Shown here one piece after another: positions 3,681 through 62,359 of a DNA stretch of 64,000 bases. Source of the stretch: Callorhinchus milii (lineage: Eukaryota); contig NW_024704742.1 in assembly GCF_018977255.1 (NCBI RefSeq), positions 123,196,001 to 123,260,000 of the forward strand. Direction: 5' to 3'. The notes under the pieces are model-generated. The model had not been told where the DNA came from. It did no database searches and saw only the letters and a list, made by a program, of their open reading frames with translations. A program made the translations under genes and the position numbers. Position 1 is the first letter of the stretch; every line of letters begins with the position of its first letter.

Positions 3681-3995
3681 ATAATAATAATCCTTGCATT
3701 TGATATGGCGCTTTTCACGTCGGGAGGACGTCCCAAAGCGCTTCACAGAACACACTGTAAAGTGAATTGACTGTATATTTGTGGGCGAACGCGGCAGCCA
3801 ATTGCGCACAGCAATATCCCACAAACAGTCGTAGATTGAAAATGACCAATTTTATTATTACTTTTGGTTTTGGAGGGATTATTATTAGGCGTGTGGAGTA
3901 AGGAACTTGCCCAAGGTTTCGCCCTCTGCCTGGAATTGAACTCAGGTCTCTCACTTGCAAAGCGAGTGCACTAACCACTGAGCTACAGGACTCCA
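3681..3995 (-). mobile_element. Full-length young tRNA-derived SINE, family A short form
   Basis: tRNA-like head with A box (TAGCTCAGTGG) and B box (GAGTTCAATTCC), body tgtttgtgggaYattgctgtgcgcaattggctgcc, L2-like stem-loop tail and (ATT)n. Near-identical to four other full-length copies. Confidence 0.95.
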
Positions 3996-24267: not shown

Positions 24268-24573
24268 TGAAGTCCTGTAGCTCAGTGGTTAGAGCACTCG
24301 CTTTGCAAGCGAGAGACCTGAGTTCAATTCCAGGCAGGGCGAAACCTTGGGCAAGTTTCCTTACTCCACACGCCTAATAATAATCCCTCCAAAACAATAA
24401 TAAATTGGTCATTTTCAATCTACAACTGTTTGTAGGACATTGCTGTGCGCAATTGGCTGCCGCGTTCGCCCACAAATATACAGTCAATTCACTTTACAAT
24501 GTGTTCTGTGAAGCGCTTTGGGACGTCCTCCCGACGTGAAAAGCACTATATCAAATGCAAGGATTATTATTAT
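24268..24573 (+). mobile_element. Full-length young family A short-form SINE
   Basis: Intact tRNA-like head with arm CTCGC-TTTGCAA-GCGAG; target-site duplication AAACAG at 24262-24267 and 24574-24579. Confidence 0.96.
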
Positions 24574-27500
24574 AAACAGAGACTATAATAAATAATAATA
24601 ATAATCCTTGGATTAGATATAGTGCTTTTCACGTCTTCTAGACGTCTTAAAGCGCTTCACAGAGTATATTGTAAAGTGAATTGACTGTATATTTGTGGGC
24701 GAAGTATGATATAACAATACACATTTTCATAAAATGTGATTACATATACGTTTGGTATATTTAGCCAAAGTAGCTTTTGAATGCAGAGGGTGAAAATTGT
24801 GGTATGTGATGTTAGAATTATCACTGGTGATAATAGCGCATTGTCGGACATTCTGTTCCTCGACATATCTCAATTGAAAACCGTTGTGGGGGAAGCAGCC
24901 CCTCCCCCACCTGCATTCAATCGCTTATGTCCTAGAGGTGCTTGCTACATCAATTTAAGCACTTTGAGACGTCCACCCGATGTGAAAGGCACTACATAAA
25001 TGTAAATGGTATTGTATTCGGCAGGCGTCAGCTTTGTCCCTACCACCAACACGAAATCCAGGATTCATACTGGCTGCCGCACACATCTACAAAATACACA
25101 GTCACTACATTTCACAGTAAATCCCGGGAAGCGCTTTGTGATGTGAAAGGCTTTGGGAATTGGCAAATATCTTCATGTAATGTCAAGCACACAGTATAGA
25201 TGTGGATAGGTTTAGCTTATAAGTATTGGCTGCTGTGTTCGGTCCAAAATACTAAGACGCTACACTTTACAGAAATTCCCTGTGAAGCAATCTGAGACAT
25301 TTTGACGCTATAACAAGGACTCTTGTTATTATTATAACCTAATCCCAAACAGCACGGCTGCTAAATATACTGCTGGACCTGCTTCCCATTTGAAAGGAGC
25401 AAATTATTTCCTTTTGAAAATTCATACTTTTACGAGGCAGTACTTTTGAAGTCAAGGTGACGTGACAACCTCAGATCATTTTACGATGCCTATGTTAGAA
25501 GGAATCATGTTAAAATGAACATCGCATTGGAAATTCAGATCTGTATGTTCTAACTCTTCCCCTGCATCTCATTGCAGACTACCTGCTGAGACTGTGTCTA
25601 AACCCCATTGGGACCACTTCCTCCTTTAAGCATCTGCCTCCAAATGTAATTTCCTTACAACAAATCATCACCTCCCCAATCTTTGATCCTTCCTCTAACA
25701 TCGGTTAGGAAATGAGAAACAGAGCTGGAGCCTCAGTTGAAATGCGCTGAACAAGTTGAAAGCTCTGTTCAGTGTTATGGACAGAGTTGAAAGGAACGCT
25801 GAGAACAACATCAGATAAGAGAAGGAAATGAGAACAAAATTAAAAGAAGTTTCAAAGTTAAACAAAGAAAATAAAACATCTCAAGGATAAATGTGGAACA
25901 ATTATTGAGACAACTCAAAGGAATAATGGAGAAACAGAAGTAGATAAGAAGGTTGCTATAGAACGAGACTGCAGAGGAACAAAGGGTTATTGTAGAATTA
26001 TGTGATTCTCTTCAAACCGTGTGAAGGGAAACTGACTACTGACCTTCAAATAGCCAAAGAGACAGAGCTGATTGAGGTATTTAACAGCAAGAGAGAGAGA
26101 TACTTGGCAAGTGAGGATGTTAAGGGATAAGGAGAAAAGCTGGAGTTACGGAATAAAAGAGTTGCAATAGGCTAATGCCAAGAAAGACTAAATACCCTGA
26201 CCCAAGGCTTAAAACCGCAGCCTTCTGCCTCAGAGGTGAGAATGCTATGGACTGAGCCAGGCTGACACATTTGGGACATTCTTGGATTTGTACTAGTAGC
26301 CCCGTTCCTGTTCCCACCCGCAGACTGGCGTTTGAGTAACAATAATAATAATCCTTGCATTTGATATCACGCTTCACACCACATCATGGGACACCAGTGG
26401 AGTTAAGACGGCATCCTATGATGCTGTAGTAAAATAACAAATGACAATGGCAACTTGGTATCAAATGGGGGCAGGTAAATGAACCAAATTTTAATTGGCC
26501 GGGATCCAATTCTTCATGAACGTAACATTTACTCTGAACGTTCCCAATTCACAGAATGCCCTCTGAGCTCTTGGTCTGCTCTCTCTCCTCCACTGCAATA
26601 TCATAACTTCTGTAACCCTTCTCTCAGGCAGAGAACTCTTCTCAACTACATTACTCACGTCTTTCACTGATGAAGTGGCACTTACAAATCCTCCCCATCA
26701 GGTCTGACTTGGATTTAAATGCTCACCTTTTGATGTCCTCTTTCAGATGTGCAAGTTCTGCAAGAATTCCTCTTTGATCTGGGCAAATTGATCCTTTTCT
26801 CTCTATTTTTCCTGAGGGGCAGGAACACTGGGAGTCGTCCTAAACCGCAGACAGTTTAGCTTTTGATGTGATCTCCCAGCATTCACATTGTCACTAACAT
26901 TGGCAATCACAGGAAAATTGAGCCCCCTTAAGAGGTTACACAATTTTAATGATATTTCTCACGTTTCAAATACAACCACTGCAATCATTGCGCTGGTGGT
27001 ATGGACTTTCTGTTTATTCAGGTGATTTAGCTTAATACTAGAAGAATCTGCAAAATGTTACCAGCTTGTTTGTCTGCATCAAATTGCTCTTATCTCCCAG
27101 ACCTCTGCAGGTGTTACTATAAACTACAAAACATGTCAGATTTAAAGAATTCTATGTTGAATTTTATAACATTCCGGGGAATTTTCCAATTCCCGCTTCA
27201 TTCAACAATAAGCATTTCTTTGATTACAGCAGACAGTAACATAAGCAGCAACCCAGTTGTATCCCTATAAATCATTTTAATGAAAGTGAAATTTATACAG
27301 GTGTTGTTTCACGTATTAAGGACACATTTTGCAAGATATATGTGTTTGCAACAACTGTACATGAGTTAATGTCCCTTTCCTGCTGATCAAGCAAATGATC
27401 TTCGAAGAAATACAGTCACTTTGTATAGTTTGAAATTAATCAGCCAGACAGGTAACAAATGCAAACAATAACAACGAAAGCTCTAAATCACTCTACAGCC

Positions 27501-28180: not shown

Positions 28181-28499
28181 ATAATAATATTAATAATAAT
28201 CCTTGCATTTGATATAGCGCTTTTCACGTCGGGAGGACGTCCCAAAGCGCTTCACAGAACACACTGTAAAGTGAATTGACTATATTTGTGGGCGAACGCG
28301 GCAGCTAATTGCGCACAGCAATGTCCCACAAACAGTCGTAGATTGAAAATGACCAATTTATTATTGTTTTGGTTTTGGAGGGATTATTATTAGGCGTGTG
28401 GAGTAAGGAAACTTGCCCAAGGTTTCGCCCTGCTTGGGATTGAACCCAGGTGTCTTGCTTGCAAAGCGAGTGCTCTAACCACTGAGCTACAGGACTCCA
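28181..28499 (-). mobile_element. Full-length young family A short-form SINE inserted in a family C repeat
   Basis: Near-identical to 24268-24573; CTTAA duplicated at 28177-28181 and 28500-28504; family C sequence continues on both sides. Confidence 0.95.
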
Positions 28500-29095: not shown

Positions 29096-29452
29096 TAATA
29101 ATAATAATCTTTGCACTTGATATAGCGCCTTACCACATCTTCGAGACGTCTCAAAGCGCATCACAGAATATACTGTAAAGTGAATTGACTGTATATTTTG
29201 TGAGTGAAACGCGGCTGCCAGTTGCAGACAGCAGTGTCCCACAAACACTAAAGTGACCAATTTTTTTTGAAGGAATTATTACCCGCAGAAAAGCGATCCC
29301 CCAATCGACTAACAACCTGGTTCCTACTTACTGCTAGGTAAACAGAGGAGTGTGGAGTAAGGAAACTTGTCCAACATTTTGCCCTGCCAGGAATTGAACC
29401 CAAGTCTCTCGCTTATGAGGCGAGTGCTCTAATCACTGAGCTACAGAACTCC
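29096..29452 (-). mobile_element. Full-length family A long-form SINE
   Basis: Head, central block and tail (loop CTCGAAG) all present. Confidence 0.92.
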
Positions 29453-40030: not shown

Positions 40031-40385
40031 ATTTCCTGAAGTATAGCCATTGTCTGTGATCGCATTACAATTATTTCACCTGCCATTCCTCCTTAGGATC
40101 ACCTACTGGTTAGTTGGTTCTGAGCGAAGAGCTAAGCAGCCCATGGTGATCTGGCCTGTGTCCTAACATTTCATTCACTGAATATTTCATACACCTTTCT
40201 TTGATGTCGGCAATGAATCTTTTTGTTCAGGTAACGGTCATTAGTTTTTTGATAGATCTTTTGCCAAATGTGATCAGGGAGAACCTTGCAAAGACGATCA
40301 AAATATTGGCTTTACAGACTGGCGACCTTAGAAGTTCAAAGAACTCATACCTCAGTCCAAAGTGCTGCAGATTCCAACATAACTT

Positions 40386-40635
40386 TGAACAAAACACTGC
40401 AGATGCTGGAAATCTGAAACAAAAACAGAGAGAACTGGGAAAACTCAGAAGGTCTGGTAGCATCTATGGAGAAAGGAAAGTGAGTCAACGTTTCGGGTCT
40501 ACGACCTTCATCAGAACTCAAGGTTTCGGGTCCACAACCCTTCGTCAGACTCACTTTCCTTTCTCCTTTCCTTTCTCACTCACTTTCTGCCTGACTTGCT
40601 GAGTTTTCCCAGCTCTCTCTGGTTTTGTTTCCAAC
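40386..40635. mobile_element. Palindromic non-autonomous element, Penelope-like-derived
   Basis: Outer imperfect inverted repeat 40416-40460/40587-40631, inner perfect 19-bp inverted repeat 40468-40486/40548-40566, hammerhead cores in the centre. Resembles the common chondrichthyan 'ctgcagatgctggaaatctgaa' repeat. Confidence 0.75.
40482..40519 (-). ncRNA. Minimal type-I hammerhead ribozyme motif
   Basis: Minus strand: GAGUU-CUGAUGA-A.GGUC.GUA.GACC.C-GAAA-C-GUU-GACUC. Stem I GAGUU/GACUC, stem II GGUC/GACC, palindromic ACGU stem III, GUU cleavage triplet. Activity untested. Confidence 0.65.
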
Positions 40636-40898
40636 ATAATCTTGTTGATTATGCAAGTTGCTGATCCCCGACTGTTCAGCACCTTGGGACATCCTCCCGA
40701 CGTGAAAGGTGCTTTACAAATGTAATTTTGTTGTTCGTGGTGTTGTAATACGGGGAAGTTTTTACCTATTAGTGGAAAATACTGCAGTTTTTCCAAGGTT
40801 TTAAACCCTTCAGACACCTGGCTCATTAAAAGATCCAAATACCGTTTAGTGGGACTGATGGTGAGCAGTAGTTAACCCACACATGAACTACGCTCTCG

Positions 40899-48384: not shown

Positions 48385-48424
48385 ATGGATTTTAGTTCAT
48401 CGTCTGTTTTCGATCAGCATAAAG
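48385..48424 (+). CDS. ANKRD55: Ankyrin repeat domain-containing protein 55, coding exon 1 (MDFSSSSVFDQHK-G)
   Basis: Matches recalled human MDFSTPSVFDQQRG; AAAATGG Kozak context; donor G|GTACGG, phase 1. Confidence 0.9.
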
Positions 48425-53474: not shown

Positions 53475-54146
<672 letters not shown>

Positions 54147-54879: not shown

Positions 54880-55086
<207 letters not shown>

Positions 55087-58269: not shown

Positions 58270-59570
58270 ATGCATGCAAAGTGTAGTCTTTGCATGAACA
58301 CCATGTCTTCATTGTGGATTTACCGTGAAGTGATTTATTTGTAGGTGAAAACGGCTGCCCATTTGCACACAACAATGTCCCATGAACAGCTATGAATTGA
58401 ATTACCAATTTTAATTGGAGGATTGTTGGCCAGGATCCTGGGAGATACTCCCTTCTGTTACCGAGCAGTGCCATGGAATCTATAATGTCCACCTGAACAG
58501 GCAGATGAGAGCTATAAGTTTAACATCTCCAAAGGATGGCACCTCCAACAATGCAGCACACCCCAGGCACTGCATGGAGTATCAGCCTAAACTATGTGAG
58601 CTCAGCTACCAACTTGGGGCTTGAACCCACAATCTTCTGCCTCAGAGGCAAGAGTGCTACTGACCCAGCTGATATCTTTCAAGTCAGGAGGACATCTCAA
58701 AATGCTTCACAGAATGTATAGTGAACTGTAGTTACTGTGTATTTTGTACGTAAACGCGGTAGCCCATTTGTGAAATTTAATAATAATAATAATCTTTGCA
58801 TTTGATATAGCACTTTTCACGTCGGGAGGACATCCCAAAGCGCTTCATAGAACACACTGTATAGTGAATTGACTGTATATTTGTGGGCGAACGCGGCAGC
58901 CAATTGCGCACAGCAATGTCCCACAAACAGTCGTAGATTGAAAATGACCAATTTATTATTGTTTATGGTTTTGGAAGGATTATTATTAGGCGTGTGGAGT
59001 AAGGAAACTTACCCAAGGTTTCGCCCTGCCTGGAATTGAACTCAGGTCTCTCGCTTGCAAAGCGAGTGCTCTAACCACTGAGCTACAGGACTTTGTGCAC
59101 AGATAAAGGAAAATCCAAGACACTCAACTCTTTACACTGTGGTTTTGCTGTCATGGGCAAATCATAATGAAAATGTGCAATTCACAGTACCTTGATTCAT
59201 CTATTGCTGTAATAATAATCCTTGCATAGAGCACCTTATCACGTCTTTGATACATTTCAAAGCACTTCACTTAATATACTGTAAAGTGAATTGACAGTAC
59301 ATTTTGTGGGCAAAATGTGACAGCCAATTGCGCACAGCAATGTCCCACAACAATGACCTCAATTTTAAATGTAAAAAATTTTTTTAGAGGGATTATTATC
59401 CCCGGAAAAGCGATCCGAAAAGCGACTAACAACTGCGTTCCTACTTACTGCTAGGTGAACAGAGGCGTGTGGAGTAAGGAAACTTGCCTAACATTTCGCC
59501 CTGCTGGGAATCAAACTAGATCTCCAGCATGCAAAGCAAGTGCTCTAACCAGTGAGCTGCAGGACACTAA
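58270..59570 (-). mobile_element. Nested SINE cluster: family B (58270-58670), old tail (58680-58772), young family A (58780-59092), long family A (59210-59567)
   Basis: All on the minus strand; the young copy is flanked by TTTGTG on both sides within the older SINE. Confidence 0.9.
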
Positions 59571-61566: not shown

Positions 61567-61890
61567 TAATAATAATAATAATAATCCTTGCATTTGATAT
61601 AGCTCTTTTTACGTCGGGAGGACGTCCCAAAGCACTTCACAGAACACACTGTAAAGTGAATTGACTGTATATTTGTGGGCGAACGCGGCAGCCAATTGCG
61701 CACAGCAATGTCCCACAAACAGTCGTAGATTGAAAATGACCAATTTATTATTGTTTTTGGTTTTTTTGGAGGGATTATTATTAGGCGTGTGGAGTAAGGA
61801 AACTTGCCCAAGGTTTCGCCCTGCCTGGAATTGAACTCAGGTCTCTCACTTGCAAAGCAAGTGCTCTAACCACTGAGCTACAGGACTCCA
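61567..61890 (-). mobile_element. Full-length young family A short-form SINE
   Basis: Near-identical to 58780-59092; ATCTA on both flanks. Confidence 0.95.
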
Positions 61891-61980: not shown

Positions 61981-62359
61981 TGGAGACCTGTAGCATAGTG
62001 GTTAGAGCACTCGCCTCACAAGTGAGACCACCTGGGTTCGATTCCCAGGCAGGACATAACGTTGGGCAAGTTTCCTTACTCCACACGCCTGTTTACCCAG
62101 CAGTAAGTAGGAACCTGGTTGTTAGTCGATTGGCGAATCACTTTTCCGGGGGTAATAAACCCTTCAAAACAAAAACAAATTTAAAAAAATAATAATTTGG
62201 TCATTTAGTCACTTCAATCCACGACTGTTTGGGACACTGCTGCTGTGTTTCGGCCACAAAATATGCAGTCAATTCACTTTACAGCATATTCTGTGAAACT
62301 CTTTGAGACGTCTTGAAGATGTGATAAGGCGCTATATCAAATGCAAGGATTATTATTAT
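61981..62359 (+). mobile_element. Full-length family A long-form SINE
   Basis: Head with A box, arm CTCGC-CTCACAA-GTGAG and B box GGTTCGATTCC; central block; tail loop CTTGAAG. Confidence 0.93.

What the first reader, a model, noticed from the sequence alone, without database searches (positions are those of the whole stretch)
40482..40549. Two hammerhead-ribozyme cores inside a palindromic Penelope-type element
Seen on the minus strand: GUGAGU-CUGACGA-AGGGU.UGUGG.ACCC-GAAA-CCUU-GAGUU-CUGAUGA-AGGUC.GUA.GACCC-GAAA-CGUU-GACUC. The downstream unit (40482-40519) has both conserved boxes, a stem II, a 5-bp stem I, a GUU triplet and a loopless palindromic ACGU stem III. The upstream unit (40520-40548) has both boxes and stem II but a broken stem III. 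A perfect 19-bp inverted repeat encloses both and would compete with the active fold. Established: Penelope-like elements and retrozymes carry minimal type-I hammerheads with palindromic helix III that cleave as dimers. Inference: this ~250-bp non-coding element belongs to a ribozyme-bearing non-autonomous retroelement family, and is the best candidate for an under-described system in the window.
Basis: partly seen in the sequence, partly recalled or inferred. Interest (0 to 1): 0.8.

Follow-up and report, generated by a model that had tools for sequence, protein, structure and literature searches.

The report
Stuttered hammerhead in Penelope insertion stub
This is a 246-base leftover of a very abundant, likely Penelope-type jumping gene in shark-like DNA; its small self-cutting RNA motif was copied twice, each copy is damaged and the pair is predicted to be locked in a hairpin, so it is an ordinary example of a known kind.

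Summary
In detail: two hammerhead cores (40482-40519, 40520-40548, minus strand) lie inside a perfect 19-bp inverted repeat. They sit in a 246-bp insert (40383-40628) with an 11-bp target-site duplication, a 33-bp one-sided tail and an inverted truncated arm, the published layout of Penelope-like element (PLE) insertions. The repeat is laid by thousands of contigs in each of four shark-like DNA runs. Its consensus carries one intact minimal hammerhead. Here neither core is complete: the downstream one lost G10.1, the upstream one lost G16.2 and its stem I. They cannot dimerise in cis, and the active fold is predicted about 14 kcal/mol uphill. Across copies, catalytic G12 decays like other CpG sites (14-16%), so copies show no selection. 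The second core is a 31-nt stutter, likely made at insertion; no listed relative repeats it. No link to a PLE reverse transcriptase could be shown. One oddity: both seams of the stutter touch the predicted cut site, which may record cleavage but is untestable here. The scan has noted such stubs many times before (208 notes, at least 20 genomes), doubled cores included. Not an under-described system.

The parts
40372..40382 (+). Left copy of the 11-bp target-site duplication (TTCCAACATAA)
   Evidence: Only exact repeat of 6 nt or more between the two boundary regions; 4 of 2000 random box pairs share an 11-mer
40383..40415 (-). 33-bp one-sided tail: 3' end of the sense copy, absent from the inverted arm
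   Evidence: Arm homology starts at 40416; family pieces start at about 40389-40392; 30-40 bp one-sided tail described for PLEs
40383..40518 (-). Sense copy of the element end (pseudo-LTR-like): hammerhead followed by about 100 nt including the tail
   Evidence: Laid by thousands of contigs in each run; 16 of the 32 longest listed pieces stop at 40518
40482..40519 (-). Downstream minimal type I hammerhead: both boxes, ACGU helix III, GUU site, stem I intact; G10.1 deleted from stem II
   Evidence: family consensus with the extra G from loose ends
40518..40548 (-). Upstream 31-nt partial tandem copy of the hammerhead core: stem II intact, G16.2 changed to C, no own stem I
   Evidence: Period 33, 2.1 copies; 4 substitutions and 1 indel against the downstream unit; geometry enumeration
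40548..40631 (+). Inverted truncated arm, starting at the equivalent of G1.1 (first base after the predicted cut); inner 19 bp perfect, outer 45 bp 87% complementary to 40416-40460
40567..40586 (+). 20-nt filler inside the inverted arm, built from local repeats of the 19-bp arm, replacing 7 nt
40629..40639 (+). Right copy of the target-site duplication; its first 3 nt also match the arm end

Best explanation
The insert is an old, non-coding stub, likely left by one insertion of an abundant Penelope-like retroelement, and its two hammerhead motifs are predicted to be inactive. Shown: 11-bp target duplication, one-sided 33-bp tail, sense copy starting with the family's minimal hammerhead, a 31-nt partial tandem of that hammerhead, an inverted truncated arm, and separate lesions in each core. 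Inferred: the element's GIY-YIG nuclease cut both strands 11 bp apart. The reverse transcriptase copied the RNA from the tail to the start of stem I, then jumped back about 33 nt over a 2-nt overlap (GA) and recopied the core. The inverted arm came from priming at the other DNA end or from snap-back, and was joined over a 2-nt overlap (TC) that stem I complementarity supplies. The stub then decayed neutrally. The hammerhead matters, if at all, in the RNA of the parent element, where it would cut after GUU as a protein-assisted dimer; it does not work here.
For: Layout equals the published PLE scheme: partial tandem, adjacent inverted 5'-truncated copy, 30-40 bp tail at one end, 8-10 bp duplications (PMC8557442 passages; PMC3846280 passages). 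An Anolis PLE protein cuts and extends both strands and starts copying at tail-defining sites, and its hammerhead is dispensable for insertion in vitro (PMC11167929). 2925, 6929, 6815 and 3512 contigs were laid in four runs of four organism labels. Loose-end consensus behind 40499 and 40506 reads an intact CUGANGA, an extra A and a 5-bp stem II in 8 of 8 such rows. Head-to-head joints occur in all four runs (40506 to 40549: 3, 6, 4, 2 contigs). G12, C15.2 and G16.2 each vary in 12.6-16.0% of depth, the CpG pattern. The upstream unit shares none of the three changes private to the downstream unit (deleted G, A at minus 40500, U at position 7), so the duplication is about as old as the insertion. 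The active-like fold is 14.0 kcal/mol above the ensemble in the whole insert and 1.5-1.6 without the inverted arm.
Against: No reverse transcriptase or GIY-YIG frame was tied to this repeat: three protein searches and one HMMER search gave only two shark proteins with an exonised piece, and no genome is held. PLE identity therefore rests on motif and layout. The empty site was not seen. Rfam does not recognise the motif. Contigs break in repeats, so the absence of other doubled copies is weak evidence. The variant table is biased to copies at least 80% alike and had too little depth over the CUGANGA box for per-base rates. The 20-nt filler shows that this hairpin has been rearranged, so later repair could also have made the stutter.
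Confidence: 0.75

Rival explanations
1. The stub records ribozyme cleavage in the cell. One uncut RNA gave the sense copy. A second RNA, cut after GUU, gave both the 31-nt unit (5' product) and the inverted arm (3' product). The G at 40519 would come from a cap.
For: The inverted arm can extend at most to the equivalent of 40486, the first base after the cut. The upstream unit ends at U17 plus two shared letters. In a rough uniform count, 1 of 24 overlap-compatible arm ends includes the cut, and 1 of 8 GA-compatible unit ends lies there.
Against: One locus, noticed after the fact, among very many copies. Both seams have a 2-nt overlap that explains them without a cut, and the arm overlap is built in by stem I. 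The site at 40485 is also the nearest GA overlap after GAAA. None of the 24 listed loose-end rows (of 459) lies at 40486-40487, and only one contig each in two runs joins at 40486. In the Anolis element uncut RNA is the main template and no RNA reads end at the cut. Earlier scan notes on like seams mostly judged them slips (unchecked).
Confidence: 0.1
2. The insertion had one hammerhead, and the 31-nt duplicate and the 20-nt filler were added later by templated end-joining repair of a break in the hairpin-forming DNA.
For: The filler at 40567-40586 is a patchwork of nearby sequence replacing 7 nt, as templated insertions are (general knowledge of polymerase theta repair, recalled). The inner 19 bp are perfect while the outer arms are 87% alike.
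Against: The duplicate carries none of the three private changes of the downstream unit, so it must be nearly as old as the insertion. The 19 bp match the family majority on both arms, so perfection needs no refreshing (about 7% chance at 13% divergence, my arithmetic).
Confidence: 0.1
3. The 246-bp unit is a self-propagating non-autonomous element or retrozyme whose two tandem hammerheads dimerise in cis and release a small or circular RNA.
For: Two cores in tandem, a clean target duplication, and published non-LTR retrozymes derived from PLE ends, found also in the one chondrichthyan sampled (bioRxiv 10.64898/2026.07.22.740005).
Against: A cis dimer would have a C-C mismatch in the 4-bp helix III and would need nucleotides 40515-40519 twice. 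The period is 33 nt, below the 51-972 bp and 150-450 bp units published. The fold is blocked, whereas metazoan retrozyme circles mostly leave the ribozyme free. 0 of the 32 longest listed pieces run past 40522. Both cores carry lesions.
Confidence: 0.04

Closest known systems
Minimal type I hammerheads (min-HHR) in pseudo-LTRs of metazoan PLEs (Cervera and De la Pena 2014, PMC4209133; parts 1-2 of 4 read, one of two supplements searched)
   Same: No helix III beyond the palindromic ACGU, 4-5 bp helix I, extra base between A9 and G10.1, thousands of solo copies, and pairs on opposite strands 100-700 bp apart.
   Different: Stem II is 5 bp, not the 7-8 bp of the Schistosoma motifs. Here two cores lie 33 nt apart on one strand, each with a lesion. 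The searched supplement names no shark.
Insertions of endonuclease-bearing PLEs (Penelope/Poseidon, Neptune, Naiad): partial tandem, inverted truncated copy, tail, target duplication (PMC8557442 and PMC3846280, passages; Discussion of the latter)
   Same: All four features are present, with a tail of 33 bp and a duplication of 11 bp.
   Different: No coding region at all, and the partial tandem is only 31 nt. The clade could not be assigned.
Poseidon element PAc of Anolis carolinensis (PMC11167929; passages and second half of the main text)
   Same: Hammerhead near the pseudo-LTR start with insertion ends about 100-140 nt downstream of it; both-strand cutting and extension would explain an inverted arm.
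   Different: The PAc frame starts at stem II; no such frame could be shown here.
Metazoan non-LTR retrozymes (PMC7229834, passages; bioRxiv 10.64898/2026.07.22.740005, parts 1-3 of 5)
   Same: Non-coding, type I hammerheads in tandem, PLE-related.
   Different: Retrozymes are arrays of complete units of about 50-1000 nt that can yield circles. This has one complete and one partial 33-nt unit inside a blocking hairpin.

Membership tests
PLE min-HHR | CUGANGA and GAAA boxes with stem II | tested here: met
   Both units; family consensus in 8 of 8 loose-end rows behind 40499 and 40506
PLE min-HHR | Palindromic 15.1-16.1 stretch and NUH site | tested here: met
   Downstream unit ACGU and GUU; the upstream unit reads ACCU and fails
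PLE min-HHR | G10.1-C11.1 pair with an extra base after A9 | tested here: inconclusive
   Met in the upstream unit and the family consensus; not met in the downstream unit, which has A opposite C
PLE min-HHR | Helix I of 4-5 bp | tested here: met
   Downstream unit 5-6 bp, probability 0.6-0.99 without the inverted arm; upstream unit none
PLE min-HHR | Compensatory changes across the family | not testable with these tools
   No genome, no loci found; read tables give no per-copy sequences
PLE min-HHR | Self-cleavage as a dimer | not testable with these tools
   Needs an assay; a cis dimer is excluded by geometry
Endonuclease-bearing PLE insertion | Inverted truncated copy next to the pseudo-LTR | tested here: met
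   40548-40631; head-to-head joints in 4 of 4 runs
Endonuclease-bearing PLE insertion | 30-40 bp tail at one end only | tested here: met
   40383-40415, 33 bp
Endonuclease-bearing PLE insertion | Short target-site duplication | tested here: met
   11 bp, chance 4 of 2000; empty site not seen
Endonuclease-bearing PLE insertion | Same ends on an element coding for reverse transcriptase and GIY-YIG nuclease | tested here: inconclusive
   No such protein found with two short frames; no Pfam hit of that kind in 334 window frames; the searches are weak for 30-45 aa queries
Non-LTR retrozyme | At least two consecutive tandem units, each with a complete hammerhead | tested here: not met
   Upstream unit lacks stem I and G16.2; period 33 nt
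Non-LTR retrozyme | Ribozyme free to fold in the transcript | tested here: not met
   Active-like fraction about 1e-10 in the whole insert
Non-LTR retrozyme | Abundant linear and circular RNA | not testable with these tools
   Only contigs were available; they show no strand, start or circle

The most novel reading that the evidence does not exclude
This one insertion preserves both products of hammerhead self-cleavage: an uncut RNA, the 5' product as the stutter and the 3' product as the inverted arm. That would be genomic evidence that PLE minimal hammerheads cut in the germ line and that the reverse transcriptase uses cut RNA ends as templates within a multi-RNA complex.
Probability: 0.1. 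Interest if true: 0.55.

Novelty: new member of a known kind. Interest (0 to 1): 0.17.

Why it matters
As a decayed stub it matters little: minimal hammerheads in PLE ends and inverted, tailed insertions are published. The open question nearby is what these ribozymes do in vivo, since they cleave weakly and are dispensable for insertion in vitro. A shark-like genome with thousands of such stubs allows a count of seam positions against the cut site. That count, not this copy, could answer it.

Tried and rejected
No whole genome is held, so no family alignment or covariation test could be run. Rfam: no hammerhead match; the E-value hits are microRNA or snoRNA models far below their cut-offs, driven by the hairpin. 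No second copy of the element in the window. Pattern scans of metagenome and viral contigs found 0 loci each. Protein searches for a coding parent: nothing or only exonised pieces in two shark proteins. No RNA holder was listed; the run guessed as RNA (X15) holds family contigs but not this locus, which says nothing on expression. Orthology: organism B has the left flank (40102-40269, 15 differences and 4 gaps) but no contig bridged the insert, so presence there is undecided. An accidental hybrid, upstream core plus 5-bp stem III onto a GUC at 40505-40503, was rejected because its stem I would be two wobble pairs. Pairing the upstream core with the downstream GUU fails at the second stem I position. 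The fifth and sixth stem I pairs come from the seam: the family consensus has C, not G, before AGUU. Luense et al. on dimer cleavage is not held and is known here only through a review's passage. Four paper searches for shark PLE fold-back stubs or twin priming listed no such study; I saw listings only, and subscription journals, Repbase and bioRxiv supplements were not visible, so this is no claim of absence from print.

Full report
Setting. The window is repeat-rich vertebrate DNA with LINE 3' ends and tRNA-headed SINEs. The two proteins that share a piece of the element are from Scyliorhinus and Heterodontus, so a shark-like host is inferred. No genome is held. Exons of an ankyrin-repeat gene lie on the plus strand at about 48385, 53990-54110 and 54931-55061 (it resembles ANKRD55, a name I recall). 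The element is 8 kb upstream of the first coding exon found. Any host RNA from that gene would be antisense to the hammerheads (inference).

Observation. The sequence is as described. The downstream unit has CUGAUGA, GAAA, the palindromic ACGU, a GUU triplet and a 5-6 bp stem I; the cut would fall between 40487 and 40486. The upstream unit has CUGACGA, an extra A, a 5-bp stem II and GAAA, then ACCU. The full minimal motif arose in 0 of 200 shuffled windows. The 19-bp inverted repeat is perfect. Rfam found no hammerhead, and neither unit alone folds better than shuffles.

Anatomy. An 11-bp direct repeat (40372-40382, 40629-40639) bounds a 246-bp insert; 4 of 2000 random box pairs share an 11-mer. 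Read on the minus strand the insert is: an inverted arm (40631-40548, with a 20-nt filler of local sequence in place of 7 nt), the 31-nt upstream unit (40548-40518), and the sense copy (40518-40383). The last 33 bp of the sense copy have no partner in the inverted arm. Published PLE insertions show this layout: partial tandem, adjacent inverted truncated copy, 30-40 bp tail at one end, short duplication (PMC8557442 passages; PMC3846280 passages and Discussion).

The family. One run search listed 24 runs; I laid 6 of them in two calls. In one search, 2925, 6929, 6815 and 3512 contigs were laid in runs of four organism labels. Summed depth over 40472-40479 in X1 was about 4.4e5 against 8.8 on the unique flank; the tool warns this is no copy number, but the repeat is plainly very abundant. 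Loose-end consensus behind 40499 and 40506 gives an intact CUGANGA, the extra A and a 5-bp stem II in 8 of 8 such rows, then differs between runs past the start of stem I (agreement about 0.5). Of the 32 longest listed pieces (of 20,719), 16 stop at 40518, 2 at 40517, 4 at 40520-40522 and 10 earlier; none enters the upstream unit. Contigs break in repeats, so this is weak evidence that the doubling is local. Head-to-head joints occur in all four runs. Substitutions at G16.2, C15.2 and G12 run at 12.6-15.7%, 12.8-16.0% and 13.7-15.5% of depth, all CpG transitions. G12 is the general base (PMC6155905 passage). Copies therefore lose a catalytic base as fast as other CpG bases: the motif is kept in the source element, not in the copies. 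Per-base rates over CUGANGA could not be read.

Can it cut? In the whole insert the downstream stems have probability 0.001 or less and the active-like fold is 14.0 kcal/mol above the ensemble; without the inverted arm the gap is 1.5-1.6. A cis dimer needs ACCU to pair with ACGU (a C-C mismatch) and needs 40515-40519 in two stems at once. An enumeration of geometries left only the downstream monomer with its loopless 2-bp helix III and an accidental GUC site with a two-wobble stem I. Even intact min-HHRs are inactive as monomers and weak as dimers, and the Anolis motif needs the element's protein.

How it arose. The two units differ by 4 substitutions and 1 indel in 31 nt. The upstream unit has two private changes and none of the downstream unit's three, so the duplication dates from the insertion or soon after (inference). 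Each seam has a 2-nt overlap. The Anolis PLE protein cuts and extends both target strands and starts copying at internal sites that define the tail (PMC11167929). The likeliest account is target-primed copying from the tail to the start of stem I, a short jump back that recopied the core, and a second arm from the other DNA end or from snap-back. These steps are inferred; one locus cannot separate double priming from self-priming. The link to a coding parent was sought and not found.

The oddity. The inverted arm reaches at most the first base after the predicted cut, and the stutter ends at U17 plus two shared letters. A rough uniform count gives 1 of 24 and 1 of 8 compatible positions. This fits copying of both cleavage products. 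It also fits overlap-guided slips, since stem I supplies the first overlap and the second is the nearest one available. The listed loose ends show no peak at the cut (24 of 459 rows shown), and the Anolis study found no RNA ends there. I give the cleavage reading 0.1.

Comparison and novelty. It works like, and by layout and motif very likely is, a truncated endonuclease-bearing PLE insertion with a min-HHR; the coding link is unshown. It fails two defining tests for a non-LTR retrozyme. A 2026 preprint already reports PLE-derived hammerhead repeats in a chondrichthyan (supplements not visible). The scan's own notes hold 208 similar findings in at least 20 genomes and 143 in this one, including doubled cores and cut-site seams; these are unchecked leads, not support. 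Verdict: real, correctly spotted, a new member of a known kind, interest 0.17.

Noticed in passing
window 48385-48420, 53990-54110, 54931-55061 (+): Three coding exons of an ankyrin-repeat gene, resembling ANKRD55 (name recalled); Pfam Ank hit on the third.
   Followed up: partly
window 40440-40470 and 40405-40425 (-): Two polypyrimidine-plus-AG stretches in the sense copy look like splice acceptors; the frame behind the first matches the N-terminal piece of an RNF14 isoform of Heterodontus and a Scyliorhinus protein, suggesting exonisation of this repeat in gene models.
   Followed up: partly
window 40548-40503 (-): Chance hybrid hammerhead: upstream core with a 5-bp stem III closing on a GUC at 40505-40503, but only two wobble pairs for stem I.
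   Followed up: yes
window 17512 (+) and 41917 (-): Two further CUGANGA-stem-GAAA matches; the bases after GAAA do not give a minimal stem III with stem I, probably chance.
   Followed up: no
window 3926-3988, 24271-24342, 28425-28496, 29379-29450, 59021-59092, 61816-61887, 61987-62054: Seven tRNA-like heads of a SINE family whose 3' part resembles the 3' end of the LINE fragments in the window.
   Followed up: no
window 40670-40735: A LINE/SINE 3' end 30 bp from the insert, far more abundant than the element itself; several contigs join 40735 to 40390, so the two repeats also adjoin elsewhere.
   Followed up: no
window 24465-24703: Two SINE 3' ends back to back, 109-nt arms 21 nt apart, 89% complementary.
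   Followed up: no
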